Below, one piece after another: positions 49,337 to 58,489 of a DNA stretch of 64,000 nucleotides; within the stretch, counting starts at the first letter, position 1; the number at the start of each line of letters is the position of its first letter. The position numbers were made by a program, and so were the translations under genes. This DNA is from Chloroflexia bacterium (lineage in GTDB: Bacteria; Chloroflexota; Chloroflexia; QHBQ01; JADMIH01), in NCBI GenBank assembly GCA_038203825.1, contig JBBRDO010000007.1, positions 5,356 to 69,355 of the forward strand, given 5' to 3'. The notes beneath the pieces are model-generated. The model worked only from the letters and a program-made list of their open reading frames with translations, had not been told where the DNA came from and did not search any database.

Positions 49337-51229
49337 ATGTACGTCCTCGGAACCGCCGGGCATGTTGACCACGGCAAATCGACTCTCGTCAGGGCTATTA
49401 CGGGAATTGATCCCGACCGCCTTCAGGAAGAGAAGGCGCGCGAGATGACCATTGATCTTGGCTTTGCGTGGCTCACTCTTCCCTCCGGCAAAGAGGTGTC
49501 CATTGTAGACGTGCCCGGACACGAGCGATTTATCAAGAACATGCTTGCCGGGGCGGGCGGGCTCGATGCCGCGCTGCTCGTTATCGCGGCCGATGAAGGG
49601 CCCATGCCCCAGACCGAGGAGCATCTCGACATCCTGCACCTGCTGGGGGTGGATCGCGGAATCGTGGTGCTGACGAAGACGGATATGGTGGACGAGGACT
49701 GGCTCGAACTGGTAGAGGAAGAGATCCGTGACCGGCTGAAGAATACAACGCTGCAAAACGCTCCGATTGTGCCTGTCTCGGCTCGCACGGGGCAGAACCT
49801 GCCAGGATTACTTGCTGCTATCGACCGCTTGCTGGACGGAACGCAGCCGCGTGCCGATCGCGGTGCGCCTCGCCTCCCTATTGACCGCGCGTTCACGATT
49901 GCCGGGTTCGGTACGGTGGTAACAGGCACCCTGATTGACGGCAGCCTGCACGTTGGCCAGGAGGTTGAGATCGTGCCCGGCGGCCTGAAAACTCGTATCA
50001 GGGGCATCCAGAGCCACAAGCACAAGGTAGAGATTATCCAGCCCGGCAACCGCGTGGCGGTCAATCTGGTGGGACTGGACGTGGACCAGATCCGGCGCGG
50101 CATGGTGCTCGCGCTGCCTGGCAAGCTACAGCCTACCAACCGAGTAGACGTCCACTTACACCTCCTGTCTGATGCTCCGGCGCCCCTTGACCAGAACGAC
50201 TCGCTGGATATCTTCACGGGGTCAGCGGAAAGCCCGGCACGGATCACCTTGCTCGACACCGACAGATTGCAGCCCGGCGACAGCGCCTGGGCGCAATTAC
50301 GCCTGCGCGACGAGGTTGCCCTTTTGAAGGGTGACAGATACATCGTGCGACGCCCGTCGCCCAGCCTGACGGTGGGAGGAGGGCAGGTCATTGATCCGCA
50401 CCCCAGGCGGCACAAGCGCTTCAACGAGGAGACGGTCAGCACGCTGGAAACTTTGCAAAAAGGAACGCCGGAGGAACTGATCCTGCAGGCCCTTGGTATG
50501 GCGGCATTAGACGCCAAGGCGGTCATCGATAAGTCAGCACTGGAGAAGGTGGATGCCGAGCGAGCGATACAAGCGCTGCTCGATGATAAGAAGCTGTTGC
50601 TCCTGATGGGAGATGCCCAGACAATCATGCGTAACCCGCAGTCAGTGATACTGATGGCGGAGGACGCGTTTCAAGATACGATGCGCCGAGTGCACAATCT
50701 GCTAGCTATTTTCCACAAGCAACAACCATTGCGGCGCGGCATGAGCAAGGAAGAACTGCGCAGCAGGATGTCGTCGACCATATCGGCAAGAGCGTTTCCT
50801 CATGTCATGGCTCGGGCGGTTGAAAGAGGGGCAATCGCAGAGGGAGCTACGATTTATCGCACGCCTGAGCACGAGCCGAGGTACAGCCCCGCGCAAGAGA
50901 GGCAAGTAGCTGCTTTGCGCAGCGCCTACGCTAAGAGTCCATACTCACCGCCGTCGCCCACCGAGCTAGGGGTAGAGCCGGACGTGCTGGCAGCTCTCGT
51001 AGAAAGCGGAGATCTGATGAAGCTAGACGAGAGCATCTACTACACACGCGCCACGCTTGACGAAATACGCGAACGCATACTGGGCACAATTGACGAGCAC
51101 GGTGACATTAACGTGGCGCTCATGCGCGACGTCTTCGGCACAACGCGCAAATACGCCATACCGTTGCTGGAGTATTTCGATAACCAAAAGATCACACGCC
51201 GGGTCGGCGACGTGCGGGTACGCTGGTAA
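49337..51229 (+). CDS. selB: selenocysteine-specific translation elongation factor SelB
   Basis: GTAGHVDHGKSTL, DVPGHERFIKNMLAG and NKTD-like TKTD motifs. 630 aa with C-terminal winged-helix domains (IPLLEYFDNQKITRRVGDVR), as in E. coli SelB. Confidence 0.85.
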   Translation: MYVLGTAGHVDHGKSTLVRAITGIDPDRLQEEKAREMTIDLGFAWLTLPSGKEVSIVDVPGHERFIKNMLAGAGGLDAALLVIAADEGPMPQTEEHLDILHLLGVDRGIVVLTKTDMVDEDWLELVEEEIRDRLKNTTLQNAPIVPVSARTGQNLPGLLAAIDRLLDGTQPRADRGAPRLPIDRAFTIAGFGTVVTGTLIDGSLHVGQEVEIVPGGLKTRIRGIQSHKHKVEIIQPGNRVAVNLVGLDVDQIRRGMVLALPGKLQPTNRVDVHLHLLSDAPAPLDQNDSLDIFTGSAESPARITLLDTDRLQPGDSAWAQLRLRDEVALLKGDRYIVRRPSPSLTVGGGQVIDPHPRRHKRFNEETVSTLETLQKGTPEELILQALGMAALDAKAVIDKSALEKVDAERAIQALLDDKKLLLLMGDAQTIMRNPQSVILMAEDAFQDTMRRVHNLLAIFHKQQPLRRGMSKEELRSRMSSTISARAFPHVMARAVERGAIAEGATIYRTPEHEPRYSPAQERQVAALRSAYAKSPYSPPSPTELGVEPDVLAALVESGDLMKLDESIYYTRATLDEIRERILGTIDEHGDINVALMRDVFGTTRKYAIPLLEYFDNQKITRRVGDVRVRW

Positions 51230-51277
51230 CACTGTGATATAATTACCGCCACAACCTCACCAACAGGAGAGACTACT

Positions 51278-52111
51278 ATGAGCGATAACACAGAGGGCAA
51301 GACAGCGAGCAACGAACCTAAATCGCTTGAATGGGCGTTGATACTCGGCTCGTCGTCCGGCTTCGGGGCAGCCACGTCCATCGCGCTGGCCGAGCAGGCC
51401 GGCCTGAACATTTGCGGAGTGCACCTGCGCCGCCCAACAGACCCGGACATGTTCGACGAAGTAAAGACGCGGGTCGAGAAAGCAGGGCGGCAGTATCTAC
51501 CCTTCAACATGAACGCCGCTAACCCGGACCGCCGAAAGGACGCCATCGACAAGATGGTGGCGACTATGGACGGCTCAGGCTTCCGGGTCTTGATGCATTC
51601 TCTCGCGTTCGGCACGCTCAAGCCATTTGTCACAGACCTGGTTGAAGATTCGATCCAGCAACCCAACATGGATATGACGCTGGATGTCATGGCGCACTCC
51701 CTTGTTTACTGGGTGCAGGACAGTCTGAGGCGCGGATTGCTGGGGCGCGGCAGCCGCATTTTCACGATGACTTCGGCGGGGTCGCACCGCATAGTCCCCA
51801 ACTATGGCGCGGTATCAGCTGCCAAAGCGGCTCTCGAATCGCACATACGCCAGCTGGCAGTAGAGTTGGCCCCGCGAGGGATCACAGCTAACTCTATCCT
51901 TGCAGGTGTGACTGACACGCCGGCGCTGCGCCGCATTCCTGGCAACGAAAAGTTGATTGAGGTCGCGCTATCACGCAACCCTTCAGGCAGATTAACCCTG
52001 CCCACCGACATTGCGAACTTCATCGCTCTACTTGCCAAGCCCGGGAATGGAGCCGACTGGGTAACCGGCAATGTGATTAACGTAGACGGTGGGGAAGACA
52101 TCATGGGGTAG
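51278..52111 (+). CDS. SDR family oxidoreductase
   Basis: Gly-rich NAD(P)-binding N-terminus (GSSSGFGAA) and YGAVSAAK catalytic Tyr/Lys. Confidence 0.75.
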   Translation: MSDNTEGKTASNEPKSLEWALILGSSSGFGAATSIALAEQAGLNICGVHLRRPTDPDMFDEVKTRVEKAGRQYLPFNMNAANPDRRKDAIDKMVATMDGSGFRVLMHSLAFGTLKPFVTDLVEDSIQQPNMDMTLDVMAHSLVYWVQDSLRRGLLGRGSRIFTMTSAGSHRIVPNYGAVSAAKAALESHIRQLAVELAPRGITANSILAGVTDTPALRRIPGNEKLIEVALSRNPSGRLTLPTDIANFIALLAKPGNGADWVTGNVINVDGGEDIMG

Positions 52112-52115
52112 GACA

Positions 52116-52192
52116 GGGACGAGTCGTAGATCGTAAGTCGCTGATCGTAAGTCATACGGTGCTCTTTCCGACTTACGATCTACGACTCGTGG
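52116..52192. repeat. REP-like palindromic element (copy 3), terminator-like
   Basis: ACGAGTCGTAGATCGTAAGTC-GCTGATCGTAAGTC ... GACTTACGATCTACGACTCGT, immediately after the SDR stop codon. Confidence 0.85.
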
Positions 52193-52293
52193 CTCGTCCG
52201 CTGTTGACACTACAGGCACAATCCGCTACACTAGAAGTAGCAGTCGCCCTTACCGTTAGATGATCATGCCTCCAGAAAGAGGTACTTATAACT

Positions 52294-53139
52294 ATGAGTG
52301 ATACGACCATTTCCACGTCCAAGACACCCAATCAACCTGTCGACGACTATGATGATGTCGAGGAGCCGGTGTACACGCCGGCGGCTCCTGTTCAGGCTCG
52401 CCCGAGCAGAGTGCAGAGCCGATACGAGGACGACGAGGTTGATGAGTTAGACGAAGACGTCCCGGGCTACAGCCGAGGATTCCGCAGTGACGCAGGCGAA
52501 TACGACGAGGATGGAGAAGAAGTTGCGGTTTTATCGGTAAACCGGAGTCGTGCTCTCATTTTGACTTTCTCGGTCGTTATGCTGGTGGCAATCTTCGGGC
52601 TGGCGTTCTGGTTATTCTTGAACCGAGCAGGCGATGCACCTCCGACCGGTCCCGTCGCGGGCGTGCCTGTAATTACCGGCTTTGACGCTGATACCCAGAA
52701 GGAAGATCAGAAGCCGCAAACGGGCGCATACGCACCCGACTTTACCTGGCAGGAGAACGGCCAAGCCGTCTCTCTCTCCTCTTTCCGAGGGAAAAAGCCA
52801 GTTTTCGTGAACTTCTGGGGAACGTGGTGTCCACCTTGCCGGGGTGAAATGCCGGAAATGGAGACGGCGTATACCAAGCACTTCGGGAAGATCGAGGTCA
52901 TAGGAGTGTCAATGGCCCCGAAGGACACGGCAAGCATGGTGCTAAATTTTGTCAACCAGTATAAGTACAATTGGAAGTTTATCCATGACGGCGACTTCCG
53001 AGTGGCCGACCGCTATCAGGTGGCTGCTGTTCCCAGCTCCTACTTTATTGGCACAGACGGCATTATCAAGGCCGTACAGGTAGGAGCCATGAACGGAACG
53101 ATTATGGAGAACTATATCAACCAGGTCATCACACCCTAA
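52294..53139 (+). CDS. TlpA/ResA-like thiol:disulfide oxidoreductase (membrane-anchored)
   Basis: Acidic disordered N-terminus, one TM, thioredoxin fold with WCPPC (CxxC). Confidence 0.75.
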   Translation: MSDTTISTSKTPNQPVDDYDDVEEPVYTPAAPVQARPSRVQSRYEDDEVDELDEDVPGYSRGFRSDAGEYDEDGEEVAVLSVNRSRALILTFSVVMLVAIFGLAFWLFLNRAGDAPPTGPVAGVPVITGFDADTQKEDQKPQTGAYAPDFTWQENGQAVSLSSFRGKKPVFVNFWGTWCPPCRGEMPEMETAYTKHFGKIEVIGVSMAPKDTASMVLNFVNQYKYNWKFIHDGDFRVADRYQVAAVPSSYFIGTDGIIKAVQVGAMNGTIMENYINQVITP

Positions 53140-53156
53140 GAGGTAATCAAGTCCTT

Positions 53157-53855
53157 ATGAGCCAACCCCCACAACGTCCATCTGCTAACAGGCCGCCGGC
53201 TCGTTCTAGCGGCCCCCCGCCCCCACGCAGAGGCACCTACAACGAGAGACCACGAGCAGTACAAACCCAGCGCGATCCGTTCCCCTATATCATGGGCGGT
53301 ATCATCGGGGCCATGATCATTGGCCTCGGCGCGGTGCTTTTCCTTATTCTGTCGAACAACAACGGTCCCACGCCCGCTAACACTAACACCGTCTCACCTA
53401 CGGCAGATGCAAACACCCCACCTCGCATGGCGATCGGCGAGTTCAAGGCGTTGTACGACGACCCGGCCAAACGCCCGCTCATTGTTGATGTAAGGCCCGT
53501 TGCCAGCTACGCCGAAGGCCATATCGGAGGGTCGGTGTCGATGCCCGAGACCGATATTGATAAACTGGTAGCCGACAAGCAGGTGCCGAAAGACAAGCTG
53601 ATCGTGGCGTACTGCCAATGACCGGCCGAAAACGAAAGCGCCCGTGTGGCGCAGAAGCTGCATGATACATATGGCTACAGTTACGATAATTTGAAGGTCC
53701 TTCAAGGCGGTTGGAATACCTGGAAACAGATGAACGGGACAGATCCCAAAGGATACCCTATCGAGACAGGGAACAACGGAACTCCCGTTATTGATAACGC
53801 AAAGAGCGATACAGGCTCCCAACCTACGGCTACAAAAGCGGTAGCCACACCTTAA
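53157..53855 (+). CDS. membrane-anchored rhodanese-domain sulfurtransferase with in-frame TGA (candidate selenoprotein or pseudogene)
   Basis: Pro/Arg-rich N-terminus, TM, rhodanese domain. ...LIVAYCQ-TGA(53619-53621)-PAENESARVAQKL...LQGGWNTW continues in frame to TAA 53855. Hairpin GCGCC-cgtgt-GGCGC 16 nt downstream of the TGA. Confidence 0.55.
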
Positions 53856-53886
53856 GGCAAAGCCTGGAATAGTGATTAGTTAGCAA

Positions 53887-53919
53887 AATCAGGGCGGGAT
53901 CCGGAAACCCGCCCTGATT
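53887..53919 (+). terminator. rho-independent terminator after the rhodanese gene
   Basis: AATCAGGGCGGG-atccggaaa-CCCGCCCTGATT, a perfect 12-bp stem followed by TTCTAT. Confidence 0.6.
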
Positions 53920-53937
53920 TCTATGGGGCGGTAACAG

Positions 53938-54390
53938 ATGAGCGATCAACGGGGCGGAACGAGACGTGTCAGGCGGGTGCTGCCGCCGCAAGAGGGTGCA
54001 AATCCACCCCAACCGCGCGCAGGCCAGGGCATGGCCCGCATGCCGATACGCGACGATCGTTCAGTGCCCATCCGCAGGGCGGAAGTCGGGCAAGCGACAG
54101 CGCCGCCGCGCAACGATCTGTACCAGTACATCATAGGTGCGGTGGTATCGGCTACGGTGCTGGGGCTGATCCTCATAATTTGGCTGGTCGCAACGTCCGG
54201 AAAAGGCGTTGCGAATCCTGCCCCGGGTACGAACACGGTTTCCGGCGATGTGCCGACCATACAGGCTCCCCTCTCATCAGGTACGCTGGTACCGGGCGAA
54301 GTACCAACAAGCAACCTGGTGGTGCCACCTGCCCAACCGAGCCGGGGACCGTCCGGGGAGAATTGGAACCTTCTGCTTGATACGCGCTGA
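53938..54390 (+). CDS. hypothetical membrane-anchored protein (paralog of the rhodanese anchor module)
   Basis: Arg/Pro-rich N-terminus, TM, then a short Pro-rich ectodomain. Its N-terminal ~100 aa align with the rhodanese anchor (R.D...YI.G.....LGL...TNTVS). Confidence 0.5.
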   Translation: MSDQRGGTRRVRRVLPPQEGANPPQPRAGQGMARMPIRDDRSVPIRRAEVGQATAPPRNDLYQYIIGAVVSATVLGLILIIWLVATSGKGVANPAPGTNTVSGDVPTIQAPLSSGTLVPGEVPTSNLVVPPAQPSRGPSGENWNLLLDTR

Positions 54391-54425: not shown

Positions 54426-55262
54426 TCATCCCAGCGAATAGACCGGAGGCAACCGCCACACTCGCTCGGCATACTCCCCTTCGCGTGCTCCAGTTGACAC
54501 GGCAACTGATTGAAAGTAGGCGCGTACCGCAGCGGGCATCTCAGCGTCGCTGCCGAAAAGCACTCCTAGCTGCGACTTGTAGCGTGCAATGGATGCTATT
54601 TTGACCCCGACCAGGTCTGAGACCGGCGTGACGAGGGGCTGCGCAGGCAAGCCGATTTCCGCGAGGCGCGACTCAAGTGCACCCTGCCTGCTTGCATAAG
54701 GATAATCCTCGTAAAATAGCGTTGCGAAGCGCGGTCCAAGCCTGCGCGCTGCCCAGAATGTGAGTTGATGGTCTACGTGGTGACCCACGCCGAGCGGCGC
54801 GAAGACTCGAACAGGGCCGCGTGCGCCCGCGGCGGCCACCACCGCCCGGACCTTGTCTGCAATTTGAGGCACAAGAAGTCTGCGCTCCTCGGGTGCGACG
54901 GTCCCGAATAGCTCAGCATCCGACGCATAGAGGAAATGCCCGTCTGACGCCGTCCTGTAGGGTGCGTCGGCGAAATCGAGCCAGACAAGCTCCAGGCTGA
55001 GAAGCCGGGCAGCAGACTGCTCTTCACCTCTCCTGATCTCATTGATAGCCTGCAGGCTTGCGCCGGCGTCGCGCTCCCATTGTGCGTGCATGCCCAGGGC
55101 GAACGGCGAGAGATCGACCCCGTCTGCGGCCGGAGCCGCGAATACAACAATGCTAATGCAGCTCGAACCCATGCGCGAGAGGCGGGCGGCTATGGCCCCG
55201 CAAGACAGGGCTATATCGTCGAAGTGGGGCGACAGGAATATGGTTAGCGGAGCCTGTTCCAT
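54426..55262 (-). CDS. PIG-L/LmbE family deacetylase
   Basis: SPHFDDIALSCGA zinc-binding motif. Start at ATG 55262. Confidence 0.75.
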   Translation of the reverse strand: MEQAPLTIFLSPHFDDIALSCGAIAARLSRMGSSCISIVVFAAPAADGVDLSPFALGMHAQWERDAGASLQAINEIRRGEEQSAARLLSLELVWLDFADAPYRTASDGHFLYASDAELFGTVAPEERRLLVPQIADKVRAVVAAAGARGPVRVFAPLGVGHHVDHQLTFWAARRLGPRFATLFYEDYPYASRQGALESRLAEIGLPAQPLVTPVSDLVGVKIASIARYKSQLGVLFGSDAEMPAAVRAYFQSVAVSTGAREGEYAERVWRLPPVYSLG

Positions 55263-55356
55263 ATGTGGGTGACTACTCCTAAATGGCACACAACGTGCTA
55301 CCCTGTGACCAGCCTGGTGTACATCCCTTGTGGTAGTGAGTTATTATATCAAAGGC

Positions 55357-58099: not shown

Positions 58100-58489
58100 A
58101 TGAGCGAAAAACAGACCGGTGCGGGGGACGGCACAGGAGACAGGCTTGAAGCGTTCCGACAGTATCGTTTGCGTATGAACGAGAGAATTGCAAACGCAAA
58201 CCACCTGGGCATCAATCGTTTTTTCAACCTGGACACGACGGCCTATTACGACGGCGCGCTGCCGGGCCGCACTAAAGAATTGCTTGGGTTGGTGGCCTCC
58301 GCAGTACTGCGCTGCGATGACTGCGTGGACTATCACCTCATACAGTGTGTCGAAGCAGGATACACCAACGAGGAGATAACGGACGCGCTCAACGTGGCGC
58401 TGGTAGTAGGCGGAAGCATATTGATCCCGCACCTCCGCCACGCTATGGAAACGATAGATCTGTTGAGGGCGGAAGAAGAAGGTCAGTAG
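58100..58489 (+). CDS. carboxymuconolactone decarboxylase (AhpD-like) family protein
   Basis: AhpD-like CDDCVDYH (CxxC...H) motif. GGAGG RBS before ATG 58100. Confidence 0.75.
   Translation: MSEKQTGAGDGTGDRLEAFRQYRLRMNERIANANHLGINRFFNLDTTAYYDGALPGRTKELLGLVASAVLRCDDCVDYHLIQCVEAGYTNEEITDALNVALVVGGSILIPHLRHAMETIDLLRAEEEGQ

What the first reader, a model, noticed from the sequence alone, without database searches (positions are those of the whole stretch)
52294..54390. Cluster of three N-terminally anchored exported proteins: TlpA-like CxxC oxidoreductase, TGA-rhodanese, and a duplicated anchor-only paralog
All three begin with a disordered Pro/Arg/acidic cytoplasmic tail and a single TM. The 150-aa third protein is homologous to the first ~100 aa of the rhodanese (shared R.D..YI.G..LGL...TNTVS anchor), i.e. 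a tandem duplication that lost or never had the catalytic domain. A TlpA-type thioredoxin next to a sulfurtransferase, possibly a selenoprotein, suggests an extracytoplasmic sulfur/selenium relay or reductive repair module that I do not recognise as a described system.
Basis: inference. Interest (0 to 1): 0.6.

Follow-up and report, generated by a model that had tools for sequence, protein, structure and literature searches.

The report
Membrane-anchored selenocysteine rhodanese with thioredoxin partner
A soil Chloroflexia bacterium encodes, next to its selenocysteine elongation factor, a membrane-tethered thioredoxin-like reductase and a rhodanese whose in-frame TGA almost certainly encodes selenocysteine; the two form a conserved, sometimes fused, outward-facing redox pair that public annotation currently truncates.

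Summary
The three + strand genes are real. They are a TlpA/ResA-like WCPPC thioredoxin (52294-53139), a rhodanese (53157-53855) and a 150-aa anchor-only protein (53938-54390).

The rhodanese TGA (53619-53621) almost certainly encodes selenocysteine:
- All 47 copies in 27 Chloroflexia MAGs plus the window keep TGA, with strong in-frame conservation after it.
- Three Cys forms (CxC) exist.
- A hairpin meeting the published bSECIS criteria lies 16 nt downstream, over frozen synonymous sites.
- selB lies 2 kb upstream.

Sec sits two residues after the canonical rhodanese Cys, giving a C-Q-U motif.

The thioredoxin-rhodanese link is strong. The thioredoxin gene is directly upstream in 25 of 41 testable copies. 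Six independent protein clusters fuse both domains behind one TM helix. Two of these carry an N-terminal anti-sigma domain, and one follows an ECF sigma gene.

ORF3 is the anchor plus linker of a second tandem Sec-rhodanese that lost its catalytic domain. It is still under purifying selection.

CxU rhodanese selenoproteins are already catalogued (NF041203), but this clade scores below that model's cut-off.

The best reading is an extracytoplasmic thioredoxin-to-selenenylsulfide reductive relay. Its substrate is unknown.

The parts
49337..51229 (+). selB, the selenocysteine-specific elongation factor (630 aa). It is not part of the operon, but it is the decoding factor the rhodanese TGA needs.
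   Evidence: Pfam GTP_EFTU, SelB-wing_2, SelB-wing_3 and Beta-barrel_SelB. The order SelB-(SDR)-TlpA-rhodanese is conserved in L003, L004, L005, L006, L008, L012, L020 and L027.
52119..52190 (.). Perfect 22-bp inverted repeat with a 28-nt spacer, between the SDR gene and the operon promoter. It could be a terminator of the SDR gene or an operator; this is untested.
52204..52232 (+). Sigma-70-like promoter candidate, TTGACA-17-TACACT (10 of 12), 62 nt upstream of the thioredoxin start codon.
   Evidence: This is a consensus match only.
52294..53139 (+). TlpA/ResA-like thiol-disulfide oxidoreductase (281 aa). It has an acidic N-terminal tail, a TM helix at residues 87-105 (52552-52608), and a thioredoxin-fold domain with W-C179-P-P-C182 (52828-52839).
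   Evidence: Pfam AhpC-TSA 1.2e-23 and Redoxin 7e-22. The best NCBIfam hit is ResA at 111 bits, below its cut-off of 170. TM. The WCPPC motif is kept in 26 of 33 homologues in the related loci.
53157..53855 (+). Membrane-anchored rhodanese selenoprotein candidate (232 aa). It has an Arg/Pro-rich tail, a TM helix at residues 47-65 (53295-53351), an Asn/Thr/Pro linker, and a rhodanese domain at residues 95-191 (53439-53729). The active-site motif is C153-Q154-U155.
   Evidence: It starts 17 nt after the thioredoxin stop codon.
53619..53621 (+). In-frame TGA read as selenocysteine (U155), two residues after the canonical rhodanese Cys153 (53613-53615).
   Evidence: TGA is present in all 47 copies found, followed by the conserved PAENESARVAQKLH...LKVLLGGW. 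Cys forms exist: CHC, CAC and CQC. Alignment to BH2092 (PDB 3o3w) puts the catalytic Cys at C153.
53638..53652 (+). bSECIS-like hairpin GCGCC-CGUGU-GGCGC.
   Evidence: It has a 5-bp stem and a 5-nt loop with G at position 2. There are 21 nt from the UGA to the loop, and the energy is -9.1 kcal/mol. This meets the four criteria quoted in PMC13188914. The five codons over it use a single codon in 34-41 of 41 copies, against entropies of 1.5-2.2 bits at comparable codons. There is no covariation because the stem is invariant.
53886..53920 (+). Perfect 13-bp hairpin with a 9-nt loop between the rhodanese and ORF3. It is terminator-like but has a weak T tail.
   Evidence: The terminator scan did not call it.
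53938..54390 (+). Anchor-only paralogue (150 aa). It has an Arg-rich tail, a TM helix at residues 65-83 (54130-54186), and a conserved Pro-rich extracytoplasmic tail, DVPTIQxPLSSGTLVPGEVPTSNLVVPPAQPSRGP (54247-54351). It is the remnant of a second tandem Sec-rhodanese.
   Evidence: 13 homologues were found, and the C-terminal motif is nearly invariant. dN/dS against L003 is 0.19. Homology to rhodanese anchors is supported by hhalign and by the HMM. In L004, L015, L017 and L024 the slot is filled by a full Sec-rhodanese.

Best explanation
The TlpA-like gene and the rhodanese gene form a two-gene operon. It encodes an outward-facing, membrane-tethered redox couple.

The rhodanese is a selenoprotein. 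SelB, encoded 2 kb upstream, reads UGA 53619-53621 as selenocysteine with the help of the hairpin 16 nt downstream. This gives a C153-Q-U155 active-site loop.

Inferred mechanism:
- The selenolate attacks an oxidised sulfur species at the outer face of the membrane, such as a persulfide, polysulfide, disulfide or sulfenate.
- Cys153 resolves the adduct into an intramolecular selenenylsulfide.
- The WCPPC thioredoxin domain reduces that bond.
- The thioredoxin is itself re-reduced by a CcdA/DsbD-type electron conduit encoded elsewhere in the genome.

Shown:
- The genes, the conserved TGA and the SECIS-like element.
- The pairing and the fusion of the two domains.
- The same-side topology in the fusions.

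Inferred:
- Actual Sec insertion.
- The direction of electron flow.
- The selenenylsulfide intermediate.
- The substrate.

ORF3 is a retained anchor-plus-linker fragment of a lost second Sec-rhodanese. Its role is unknown.
For: Selenocysteine:
- TGA is invariant in 47 copies from 27 species-level MAGs plus the window. In-frame conservation continues after it.
- About 90 database homologues all end at ...AYCQ, and three source gene calls read the codon as W.
- Cys forms P0106, P0115 and P0131 align C with U.
- The hairpin meets the bSECIS model criteria, and synonymous sites over it are frozen.
- selB is adjacent here and in 8 related loci.
- The segment after the U forms a helix, a strand and a helix of the rhodanese fold at pLDDT 75-95. 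The Pfam match also spans the TGA.

Coupling:
- A TlpA-like gene lies directly upstream in 25 of 41 copies with enough upstream DNA, and directly downstream in 3 more.
- Only 17 nt separate the two genes in the window.
- L009:1340-2788 is a single ORF of TM, AhpC-TSA/Redoxin domain, Pro-rich linker and Sec-rhodanese.
- Five further fusion clusters at 43-65% identity come from other metagenomes.

Topology:
- The rhodanese and ORF3 have K/R-rich N-terminal tails.
- Family members P0106, P0140 and L037 have lipoprotein-type signals ending L-[SA]-A-C.
- In P0143, P0145 and L045 an anti-sigma zf-HC2 domain, which would have to bind a cytoplasmic sigma factor, precedes the single TM. That places both catalytic domains outside.

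Chemistry by analogy:
- The nearest structures are single-domain rhodaneses and the rhodanese domains of persulfide reductase, CoADR-RHD and persulfide dioxygenase fusions.
- From my own knowledge, not checked here: thioredoxin is a known acceptor for rhodanese persulfides, as with E. coli GlpE and human TSTD1.
Against: - There is no experimental evidence of Sec insertion, topology, co-transcription or interaction.
- No tRNA-Sec, selA or selD was found in the window or in 18 related loci scanned for tRNAs, and no CcdA/DsbD was found in the part of the window scanned with Pfam (26-64 kb).
- The SECIS hairpin shows no covariation because its stem is invariant. In the window sequence alone a different local fold is the minimum-energy structure, and its z-score is unremarkable.
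- The positive-inside rule is ambiguous for the thioredoxin, whose tail is acidic.
- The loop after the Cys, QUPAENES, is acidic. That is unlike the loops of thiosulfate-binding rhodaneses, so the classical sulfurtransferase substrate is doubtful.
- 13 of the 41 testable rhodanese copies have no adjacent thioredoxin gene.
- The structural neighbours are generic for the fold.
Confidence: 0.65

Rival explanations
1. The module is primarily a sensor, not a metabolic or repair enzyme. The redox or persulfidation state of the thioredoxin/Sec-rhodanese pair reports envelope oxidative or sulfur stress and is transduced to gene expression.
For: In P0143, P0145 and L045 the fused thioredoxin plus Sec-rhodanese is the extracytoplasmic part of a zf-HC2 (HxxxCxxC) anti-sigma factor. 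In L045 its gene overlaps by 4 nt an upstream ECF sigma gene with Sigma70_r2 and r4_2 domains. Paralogous Sec-rhodanese copies lie near BlaI/BlaR1-like pairs and cell-wall genes (VanW, PG_binding_4, SLH).
Against: The window proteins have low-complexity tails with no zf-HC2 or other signalling domain. No sigma factor gene was found among the ORFs scanned from 26 to 64 kb of the window. Anti-sigma fusions are a minority: 2 of 6 fusion clusters, and none of the 42 genome loci.
Confidence: 0.15
2. The pair serves selenium or chalcogen handling. It would capture or reduce extracellular selenite (or tellurite) on the Cys/Sec loop and so feed selenoprotein synthesis. This would explain the adjacency to selB.
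For: selB lies within 7 kb of the rhodanese in the window and 8 related loci. One Cys form gives a weak hit (25 bits) to the selenite/tellurite-reduction rhodanese ExtH model NF040901. From my own knowledge, rhodaneses can carry a perselenide.
Against: The ExtH hit is far below its cut-off of 200 and reflects the shared fold. No transporter, selD or selA is nearby. That selenoprotein genes often lie near sel genes is my own knowledge and was not checked here. Many copies are not near selB.
Confidence: 0.08
3. The adjacency is incidental. The thioredoxin would be a ResA/CcmG/TlpA-type reductase for cytochrome c or copper-centre maturation, and the rhodanese would work independently.
For: The best NCBIfam hits are ResA, StoA, DsbE and TlpA. 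13 of the 41 testable rhodanese copies lack an adjacent thioredoxin gene.
Against: All those hits are well below the curated cut-offs. There are six independent domain fusions. Synteny is conserved down to about 40% identity. No cytochrome c maturation genes lie nearby.
Confidence: 0.05
4. The TGA is a genuine stop or a pseudogene lesion. The product would be a 154-aa truncated protein, with the downstream conserved part either translated separately or not at all.
For: Public annotations call it that way. Gene callers also list short ORFs that start at the internal GTG.
Against: The TGA is invariant with the frame preserved in 47 copies at 40-80% identity. dN/dS over the whole reading frame is 0.045. 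Truncation would remove the active-site loop and three secondary-structure elements. Continuous Cys forms exist. A SECIS-like element and selB are present.
Confidence: 0.03

Closest known systems
Rhodanese-like selenoprotein 'form 3' (CxU motif), NCBIfam NF041203 rhodanese_LYCAU. It is a computationally predicted family listed in the reviews PMC9312934 and PMC13188914.
   Same: Both are single rhodanese domains with Sec two residues after the canonical Cys (C-x-U). NF041203 is the best NCBIfam hit for every member tested, over nearly the whole 126-position profile.
   Different: Scores are 60-77 bits against a cut-off of 115. The motif is AYC[QASD]U-PAENES rather than LYCAU. This clade has an N-terminal TM anchor or a lipoprotein signal, a conserved thioredoxin partner or fusion, and selB adjacency. 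None of these is mentioned in the passages I read. Function is unknown for both.
CcdA-Etrx1/2-MsrAB2 extracellular reducing system of Streptococcus pneumoniae (PMC3914529)
   Same: Both have a surface-exposed TlpA-like thioredoxin-fold protein encoded beside a membrane-anchored reductase that it is thought to recycle on the outside of a cell (abstract seen; the rest is my own knowledge).
   Different: The acceptor here is a Sec-rhodanese, not a methionine sulfoxide reductase. No ccdA lies in the cluster. Nothing is known of the substrate.
Thioredoxin-dependent rhodaneses (E. coli GlpE, human TSTD1) and persulfide reductases with a rhodanese domain (Npsr 3nt6, CoADR-RHD 3icr)
   Same: Both have a rhodanese Cys loop whose sulfane-sulfur adduct is discharged by a dithiol or flavoprotein partner. 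These structures are among the nearest folds. The biochemistry is from my own knowledge.
   Different: Those enzymes are cytoplasmic, contain only Cys, and have basic active-site loops. Here the loop is acidic, contains Sec, and the proteins are membrane-anchored and face outward.
TsoB, the rhodanese/DsbD fusion-like selenoprotein (NF045694)
   Same: It is a selenoprotein that combines, by name, a rhodanese domain with a DsbD-type electron conduit. The window rhodanese and the window thioredoxin hit different parts of its profile (E 9e-6 and 1.8e-4).
   Different: The scores are 24 and 20 bits against a cut-off of 805. TsoB has a UxxxxU motif and two Sec residues. There is no homology beyond the shared domain types.
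BH2092 (PDB 3o3w and 3nhv) and Alr3790 single-domain rhodaneses
   Same: They are the closest solved sequences and structures. The loop C-W-G-P-A-C-N-G aligns with C-Q-U-P-A-E-N-E.
   Different: They are structural-genomics proteins of unknown function, soluble, and lack Sec. Identity is about 28-34%.

Membership tests
Bacterial selenoprotein gene (Sec-decoded UGA) | In-frame UGA conserved among homologues, with coding conservation continuing downstream | tested here: met
   47 of 47 copies keep TGA, followed by the conserved PAENESARVAQKLH...LKVLLGGW. dN/dS across the full frame is 0.045.
Bacterial selenoprotein gene (Sec-decoded UGA) | Cys-containing homologues aligning Cys with the UGA (a Cys/Sec pair) | tested here: met
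   P0106 has TYCHCP, P0115 has AYCACS and P0131 has LYCQCP.
Bacterial selenoprotein gene (Sec-decoded UGA) | bSECIS stem-loop: 3-9 nt loop, 4-16 bp stem, G in the first two loop positions, 16-37 nt from the UGA, MFE at or below -7.5 kcal/mol (PMC13188914) | tested here: met
   The hairpin at 53638-53652 has 5 bp, loop CGUGU, 21 nt to the loop and -9.1 kcal/mol. Synonymous sites over it are frozen. There is no covariation to confirm the pairing.
Bacterial selenoprotein gene (Sec-decoded UGA) | Sec machinery in the genome (selB, selA, selD, tRNA-Sec) | tested here: inconclusive
   selB is present at 49337-51229. tRNA-Sec, selA and selD were not found in the window or the fetched loci. The rest of the genome is not available.
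Bacterial selenoprotein gene (Sec-decoded UGA) | Selenium actually incorporated in the protein | not testable with these tools
   This needs 75Se labelling or mass spectrometry.
NF041203 rhodanese_LYCAU (CxU rhodanese (seleno)protein) | Score at or above the curated cut-off of 115 bits | tested here: not met
   67.8 bits with U replaced by C, and 60.1 bits with X. Five relatives score 60-77 bits.
NF041203 rhodanese_LYCAU (CxU rhodanese (seleno)protein) | C-x-U motif in the rhodanese active-site loop | tested here: met
   C153-Q-U155, with variants CAU, CSU and CDU in relatives.
Rhodanese homology domain (PF00581) | Domain match above the gathering score, with a Cys at the canonical catalytic position | tested here: met
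   56.6 bits against a gathering score of 22.2. C153 aligns with the loop Cys of BH2092. The AF2 model has the rhodanese fold.
Thiosulfate sulfurtransferase-type rhodanese (GlpE or PspE) | Equivalog score. A basic six-residue active-site loop is also typical, from my own knowledge. | tested here: not met
   GlpE scores 24.9 bits against a cut-off of 102. The loop QUPAENES is acidic, as the sequence shows directly.
TlpA/ResA/CcmG membrane-anchored thiol-disulfide reductases | Thioredoxin fold with a CxxC motif behind an N-terminal membrane anchor | tested here: met
   AhpC-TSA, Redoxin and Thioredoxin_8 matches, a WCPPC motif, and a single TM at residues 87-105.
TlpA/ResA/CcmG membrane-anchored thiol-disulfide reductases | Membership of a characterised orthologue group (ResA, StoA, DsbE or TlpA) | tested here: not met
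   ResA 111 against 170, StoA 72 against 210, DsbE 53 against 123, and TlpA 44 against 230 bits.
TlpA/ResA/CcmG membrane-anchored thiol-disulfide reductases | CcdA/DsbD electron donor | tested here: inconclusive
   None was found among the window ORFs scanned (26-64 kb) or among the conserved neighbours. It could lie elsewhere in the genome.
ECF sigma / ZAS anti-sigma pair | A zf-HC2 anti-sigma domain on the protein and an adjacent ECF sigma gene | tested here: not met
   Neither is present in the window proteins or their neighbours. Both are present in the relatives L045, P0143 and P0145.

The most novel reading that the evidence does not exclude
The thioredoxin/Sec-rhodanese couple is a selenocysteine-based extracytoplasmic redox or sulfane-sulfur surveillance module of soil Chloroflexia. 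The selenenylsulfide/selenol switch would both detoxify reactive sulfur or oxidants at the cell surface and act as a sensor. In some lineages it is wired directly, as the outer domain of a ZAS-type anti-sigma factor, to an ECF sigma response. That would be the first selenoprotein sensor domain in sigma/anti-sigma signalling.
Probability: 0.2. Interest if true: 0.7.

Novelty: new variant of a known kind. Interest (0 to 1): 0.5.

Why it matters
- It corrects a systematic annotation error. Dozens of Chloroflexia 'rhodanese-like' and 'redoxin domain' proteins in public databases are truncated at the Sec codon, and their tails are called as separate small ORFs.
- It gives a function-unknown predicted selenoprotein type (CxU rhodanese) its first strong partner. 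A dedicated thioredoxin-fold reductase is linked to it by synteny and by six independent gene fusions. This makes a concrete biochemical assay possible.
- It points to selenocysteine use at the outer face of the membrane in presumably aerobic soil Chloroflexia, with the selenoprotein gene kept beside selB.
- It reveals anti-sigma factors whose sensory domain contains selenocysteine.

Tried and rejected
- Rfam at gathering thresholds found only two tRNAs and no SECIS or other RNA family.
- Folding the window's 70 nt after the TGA alone gave an unremarkable z-score of -0.93.
- RNAalifold and pair counting gave no covariation, because the stem is invariant. I relied instead on synonymous-site conservation.
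- Pairwise BLASTP of ORF3 against the rhodanese was not significant. Profiles were needed to see the relationship.
- ARAGORN found no tRNA-Sec in the window or in 18 loci.
- Pfam scans of 30 neighbouring window ORFs found no CcdA/DsbD, selA, selD or sigma factor.
- Single-linkage clustering of neighbour ORFs merged the three anchored proteins and produced an antisense-ORF artefact. Beyond the thioredoxin, only SDR, selB and PIG-L recur.
- The apparent SelB hit in L033 (31% identity, beside a tRNA cluster) is probably EF-Tu, so I excluded it.
- Literature searches for rhodanese with TlpA, for selenoprotein with Chloroflexi and rhodanese, and for anti-sigma with rhodanese and selenocysteine found no description of this system. 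The primary Tso paper is not in the library.
- The nearest PDB structures are generic rhodaneses and do not discriminate between substrates.
- I considered and rejected ORF3 as a decaying pseudogene (dN/dS 0.19 and a conserved C-terminal motif).
- I also rejected the idea that TGA is a sense codon in this organism. ORF3 itself ends in TGA, and selB is present.
Full report
**What is there.** Three + strand ORFs lie between an SDR gene (51278-52111) and a convergent PIG-L-family gene (54426-55289, - strand).

ORF1 (52294-53139) is a thioredoxin-fold protein. Pfam gives AhpC-TSA at E 1.2e-23 and Redoxin at E 7e-22. Its active site is W-C179-P-P-C182. The best NCBIfam hits are ResA, StoA, DsbE and TlpA, all far below their curated cut-offs.

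ORF2 starts 17 nt after ORF1's stop and runs into an in-frame TGA at 53619-53621. Reading through gives 232 aa ending at 53855. The Pfam Rhodanese match (E 3.8e-15) covers residues 95-191, so it spans the TGA.

ORF3 (53938-54390) matches no family.

Each protein has a charged, Pro-rich N-terminal tail and exactly one strongly hydrophobic segment. A promoter-like site (52204-52232) precedes ORF1. A perfect 13-bp hairpin (53886-53920) separates ORF2 from ORF3. The gene 2 kb upstream (49337-51229) is selB, with all diagnostic SelB domains.

**The TGA is a selenocysteine codon, as far as sequence can tell.** A search of 5.8 billion proteins returned 92 homologues. Of the 34 sequences I read, 32 end at ...AYCQ. 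The other two, both JGI gene calls, read the codon as W and continue with PAENESARVA.

A scan of one genome per species found 42 loci in 27 Chloroflexia MAGs. In these loci plus the window there are 47 copies of the motif [AV]YC[QASD]. Every one is followed by TGA and then by the conserved PAENESARVAQKLH..Y.FSYDNLKVLLGGW in the same frame.

I then searched 1.84 billion representative proteins with only the 54 residues after the U. This recovered three continuous Cys forms: TYCHCP, AYCACS and LYCQCP.

Sixteen nucleotides after the UGA lies the hairpin GCGCC-CGUGU-GGCGC (53638-53652). It has a 5-bp stem and a 5-nt loop with G in second position. There are 21 nt from the UGA to the loop, and the energy is -9.1 kcal/mol. 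This satisfies the four criteria of the consensus bSECIS model as quoted in PMC13188914.

The stem is invariant, so there is no covariation. However, the five codons that form it (S-A-R-V-A) use one codon each in 34-41 of 41 copies. Comparable four- and six-fold degenerate codons elsewhere in the same alignment have entropies of 1.5-2.2 bits.

An AlphaFold model shows that the part after the U forms a helix, a strand and a helix of the rhodanese fold at high confidence. A product truncated at the TGA would therefore lack the active-site loop and part of the core.

Missing evidence: tRNA-Sec, selA and selD are not in the window or the fetched loci. Nothing here shows selenium in the protein.

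**Where the Sec sits.** Alignment with the closest solved protein, BH2092 (PDB 3o3w), puts the canonical rhodanese cysteine at C153. BH2092's loop C-W-G-P-A-C-N-G aligns with C-Q-U-P-A-E-N-E. Sec therefore does not replace the catalytic Cys. It sits at +2, giving a C-x-U pair that could close into a selenenylsulfide; this is inference. The loop is acidic, unlike the loops of thiosulfate-binding rhodaneses.

**Relation to what is known.** Two reviews list a predicted 'rhodanese-like form 3' selenoprotein with a CxU motif, NCBIfam NF041203 rhodanese_LYCAU. NF041203 is indeed the best hit for the window protein, over nearly the whole profile. The score is 67.8 bits against a cut-off of 115. Five relatives, Sec and Cys forms alike, score 60-77 bits. 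The Chloroflexia clade is thus related to that family but falls below its curated cut-off, and NCBI records name several of these proteins in truncated form. I found no paper describing a thioredoxin partner, a membrane anchor or an anti-sigma fusion for such proteins.

**The thioredoxin and the rhodanese belong together.** tblastn of the window proteins against the 42 loci shows a TlpA-like gene directly upstream of the Sec-rhodanese in 25 of the 41 copies with enough upstream DNA. It lies directly downstream in 3 more. The motif is WCPPC in 26 of 33 of these genes. The order selB-SDR-thioredoxin-rhodanese recurs in L003, L004, L006, L008, L012, L020 and L027, and L005 has it without the SDR.

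More telling, L009:1340-2788 is a single ORF. It encodes a tail, one TM helix, an AhpC-TSA/Redoxin domain, a Pro-rich linker and a Sec-rhodanese with the same TGA. Five further fusion clusters at 43-65% identity come from other metagenomes, and all end at AYCQ.

Two of them (P0143, P0145) begin with a zf-HC2 anti-sigma domain carrying the HxxxCxxC motif. In locus L045 that gene overlaps by 4 nt an upstream ECF sigma gene and continues past its TGA with PAENESARVAQKL.

These fusions show that both catalytic domains lie on the same side of the membrane. An anti-sigma domain would have to sit in the cytoplasm to bind its sigma factor, so that side is most likely the outside. Lipoprotein-type signals in other family members (P0106, P0140, L037) and the K/R-rich tails agree with this.

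**ORF3.** Thirteen homologues at 58-93% identity exist. The most conserved part is the extracytoplasmic tail DVPTIQxPLSSGTLVPGEVPTSNLVVPPAQPSRGP. dN/dS against L003 is 0.19, compared with 0.04-0.07 for the neighbouring genes. ORF3 is therefore a real gene evolving under relaxed constraint.

Pairwise BLASTP to the window rhodanese is not significant. Three other results support the relationship:
- hhalign of the two families gives probability 97.6%, E 3.4e-12, over the RD.FPY..GG juxtamembrane motif and the TM.
- In L004, L015, L017 and L024 the slot after the first rhodanese holds a second full Sec-rhodanese.
- The ORF3 HMM's best hit (E 1e-15) is the L004 second copy. The alignment runs through the tail, the TM and the Pro-rich linker, up to where the rhodanese domain begins.

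ORF3 is therefore the anchor and linker of a tandem Sec-rhodanese that lost its catalytic domain. What the retained fragment does is unknown.

**Mechanism.** I commit to an extracytoplasmic reductive relay. An unidentified CcdA/DsbD-type conduit would reduce the WCPPC thioredoxin. The thioredoxin would reduce the C153-U155 selenenylsulfide of the rhodanese. The rhodanese selenolate would attack an oxidised sulfur species at the cell surface.

The nearest folds include rhodanese domains of persulfide reductases and persulfide dioxygenase fusions. From my own knowledge, thioredoxin is a known acceptor of rhodanese persulfides. A persulfide or polysulfide is therefore my first guess at the substrate, held with low confidence.

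The rivals are a sensory role, selenium acquisition, coincidental adjacency and a true stop codon. They are weighed in their own sections.

**Verdict.** The selenoprotein type is catalogued, so this is not categorically new. New here are the divergent anchored clade, its dedicated thioredoxin partner (including fusions and anti-sigma variants), its retention beside selB and the anchor-only derivative. All of these are testable.

Noticed in passing
L045:69-1975 (JGI metagenome 3300061202); also proteins P0143 and P0145: An ECF sigma gene (Sigma70_r2 and r4_2) overlaps by 4 nt a gene for a zf-HC2 anti-sigma domain, a TM helix, a TlpA-like thioredoxin and a Sec-rhodanese (AYCQ-TGA-PAENESARVAQKL). 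This is an anti-sigma factor whose extracytoplasmic part contains selenocysteine.
   Followed up: partly
L009:1340-2788 and proteins P0141, P0142, P0144 and P0146: These are natural single-polypeptide fusions of the thioredoxin and the Sec-rhodanese behind one TM helix. NCBI names P0141 'redoxin domain-containing protein' and ends it at the Sec codon.
   Followed up: yes
window 49337-52111 and loci L003, L004, L006, L008, L012, L020, L027: selB and a FabL-like SDR gene are kept immediately upstream of the thioredoxin/Sec-rhodanese pair across relatives down to about 60% SelB identity. The role of the SDR gene in this conserved block is unexplained.
   Followed up: partly
window 52119-52190: A perfect 22-bp inverted repeat (ACGAGTCGTAGATCGTAAGTCG / CGACTTACGATCTACGACTCGT) with a 28-nt spacer, with an overlapping 18-nt alternative arm. 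It lies between the SDR stop codon and the promoter-like site of the operon.
   Followed up: no
window 53616-53618 and the alignment of 41 copies: The codon before the UGA is CAA (Gln) in 40 of 41 copies. Lys at position -8 is AAG in 35 of 35. This suggests nucleotide-level constraint upstream of the Sec codon as well as over the hairpin.
   Followed up: no
Protein P0130 (152 aa): One called ORF holds the post-Sec tail of one rhodanese domain, then a linker and a second rhodanese domain ending ...VVLYCQ. This implies a two-domain protein with two Sec codons.
   Followed up: no
L003:8545-9977: The closest genome relative has two tandem TlpA-like genes (90% and 83% identical to the window's domain) upstream of its Sec-rhodanese, where the window has one.
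   Followed up: no
Loci L010, L028, L036, L022 and others: Paralogous Sec-rhodanese copies that lack the thioredoxin lie next to envelope-related genes. These include VanW/PG_binding_4, BlaI-like repressor with BlaR1/M56 peptidase pairs, DUF3105 and an SLH-domain protein.
   Followed up: partly
L037:8486-10489 and protein P0106: These are Sec (L037) and Cys (P0106) rhodaneses fused to an N-terminal extracytoplasmic region of about 500 aa with no Pfam match, behind a lipoprotein-type signal (LSAC).
   Followed up: no
window 58100-58489: A small CMD/AhpD-like protein with a C-D-D-C motif lies directly after the Nramp gene. It looks like an ordinary Cys form with no in-frame TGA.
   Followed up: partly
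Proteins P0107-P0138: Public protein collections contain about thirty clusters of 40-100 aa 'proteins' that start at the internal GTG or ATG just after the Sec codon (MAQKLH...). These are gene-calling artefacts of the unrecognised selenoprotein.
   Followed up: yes
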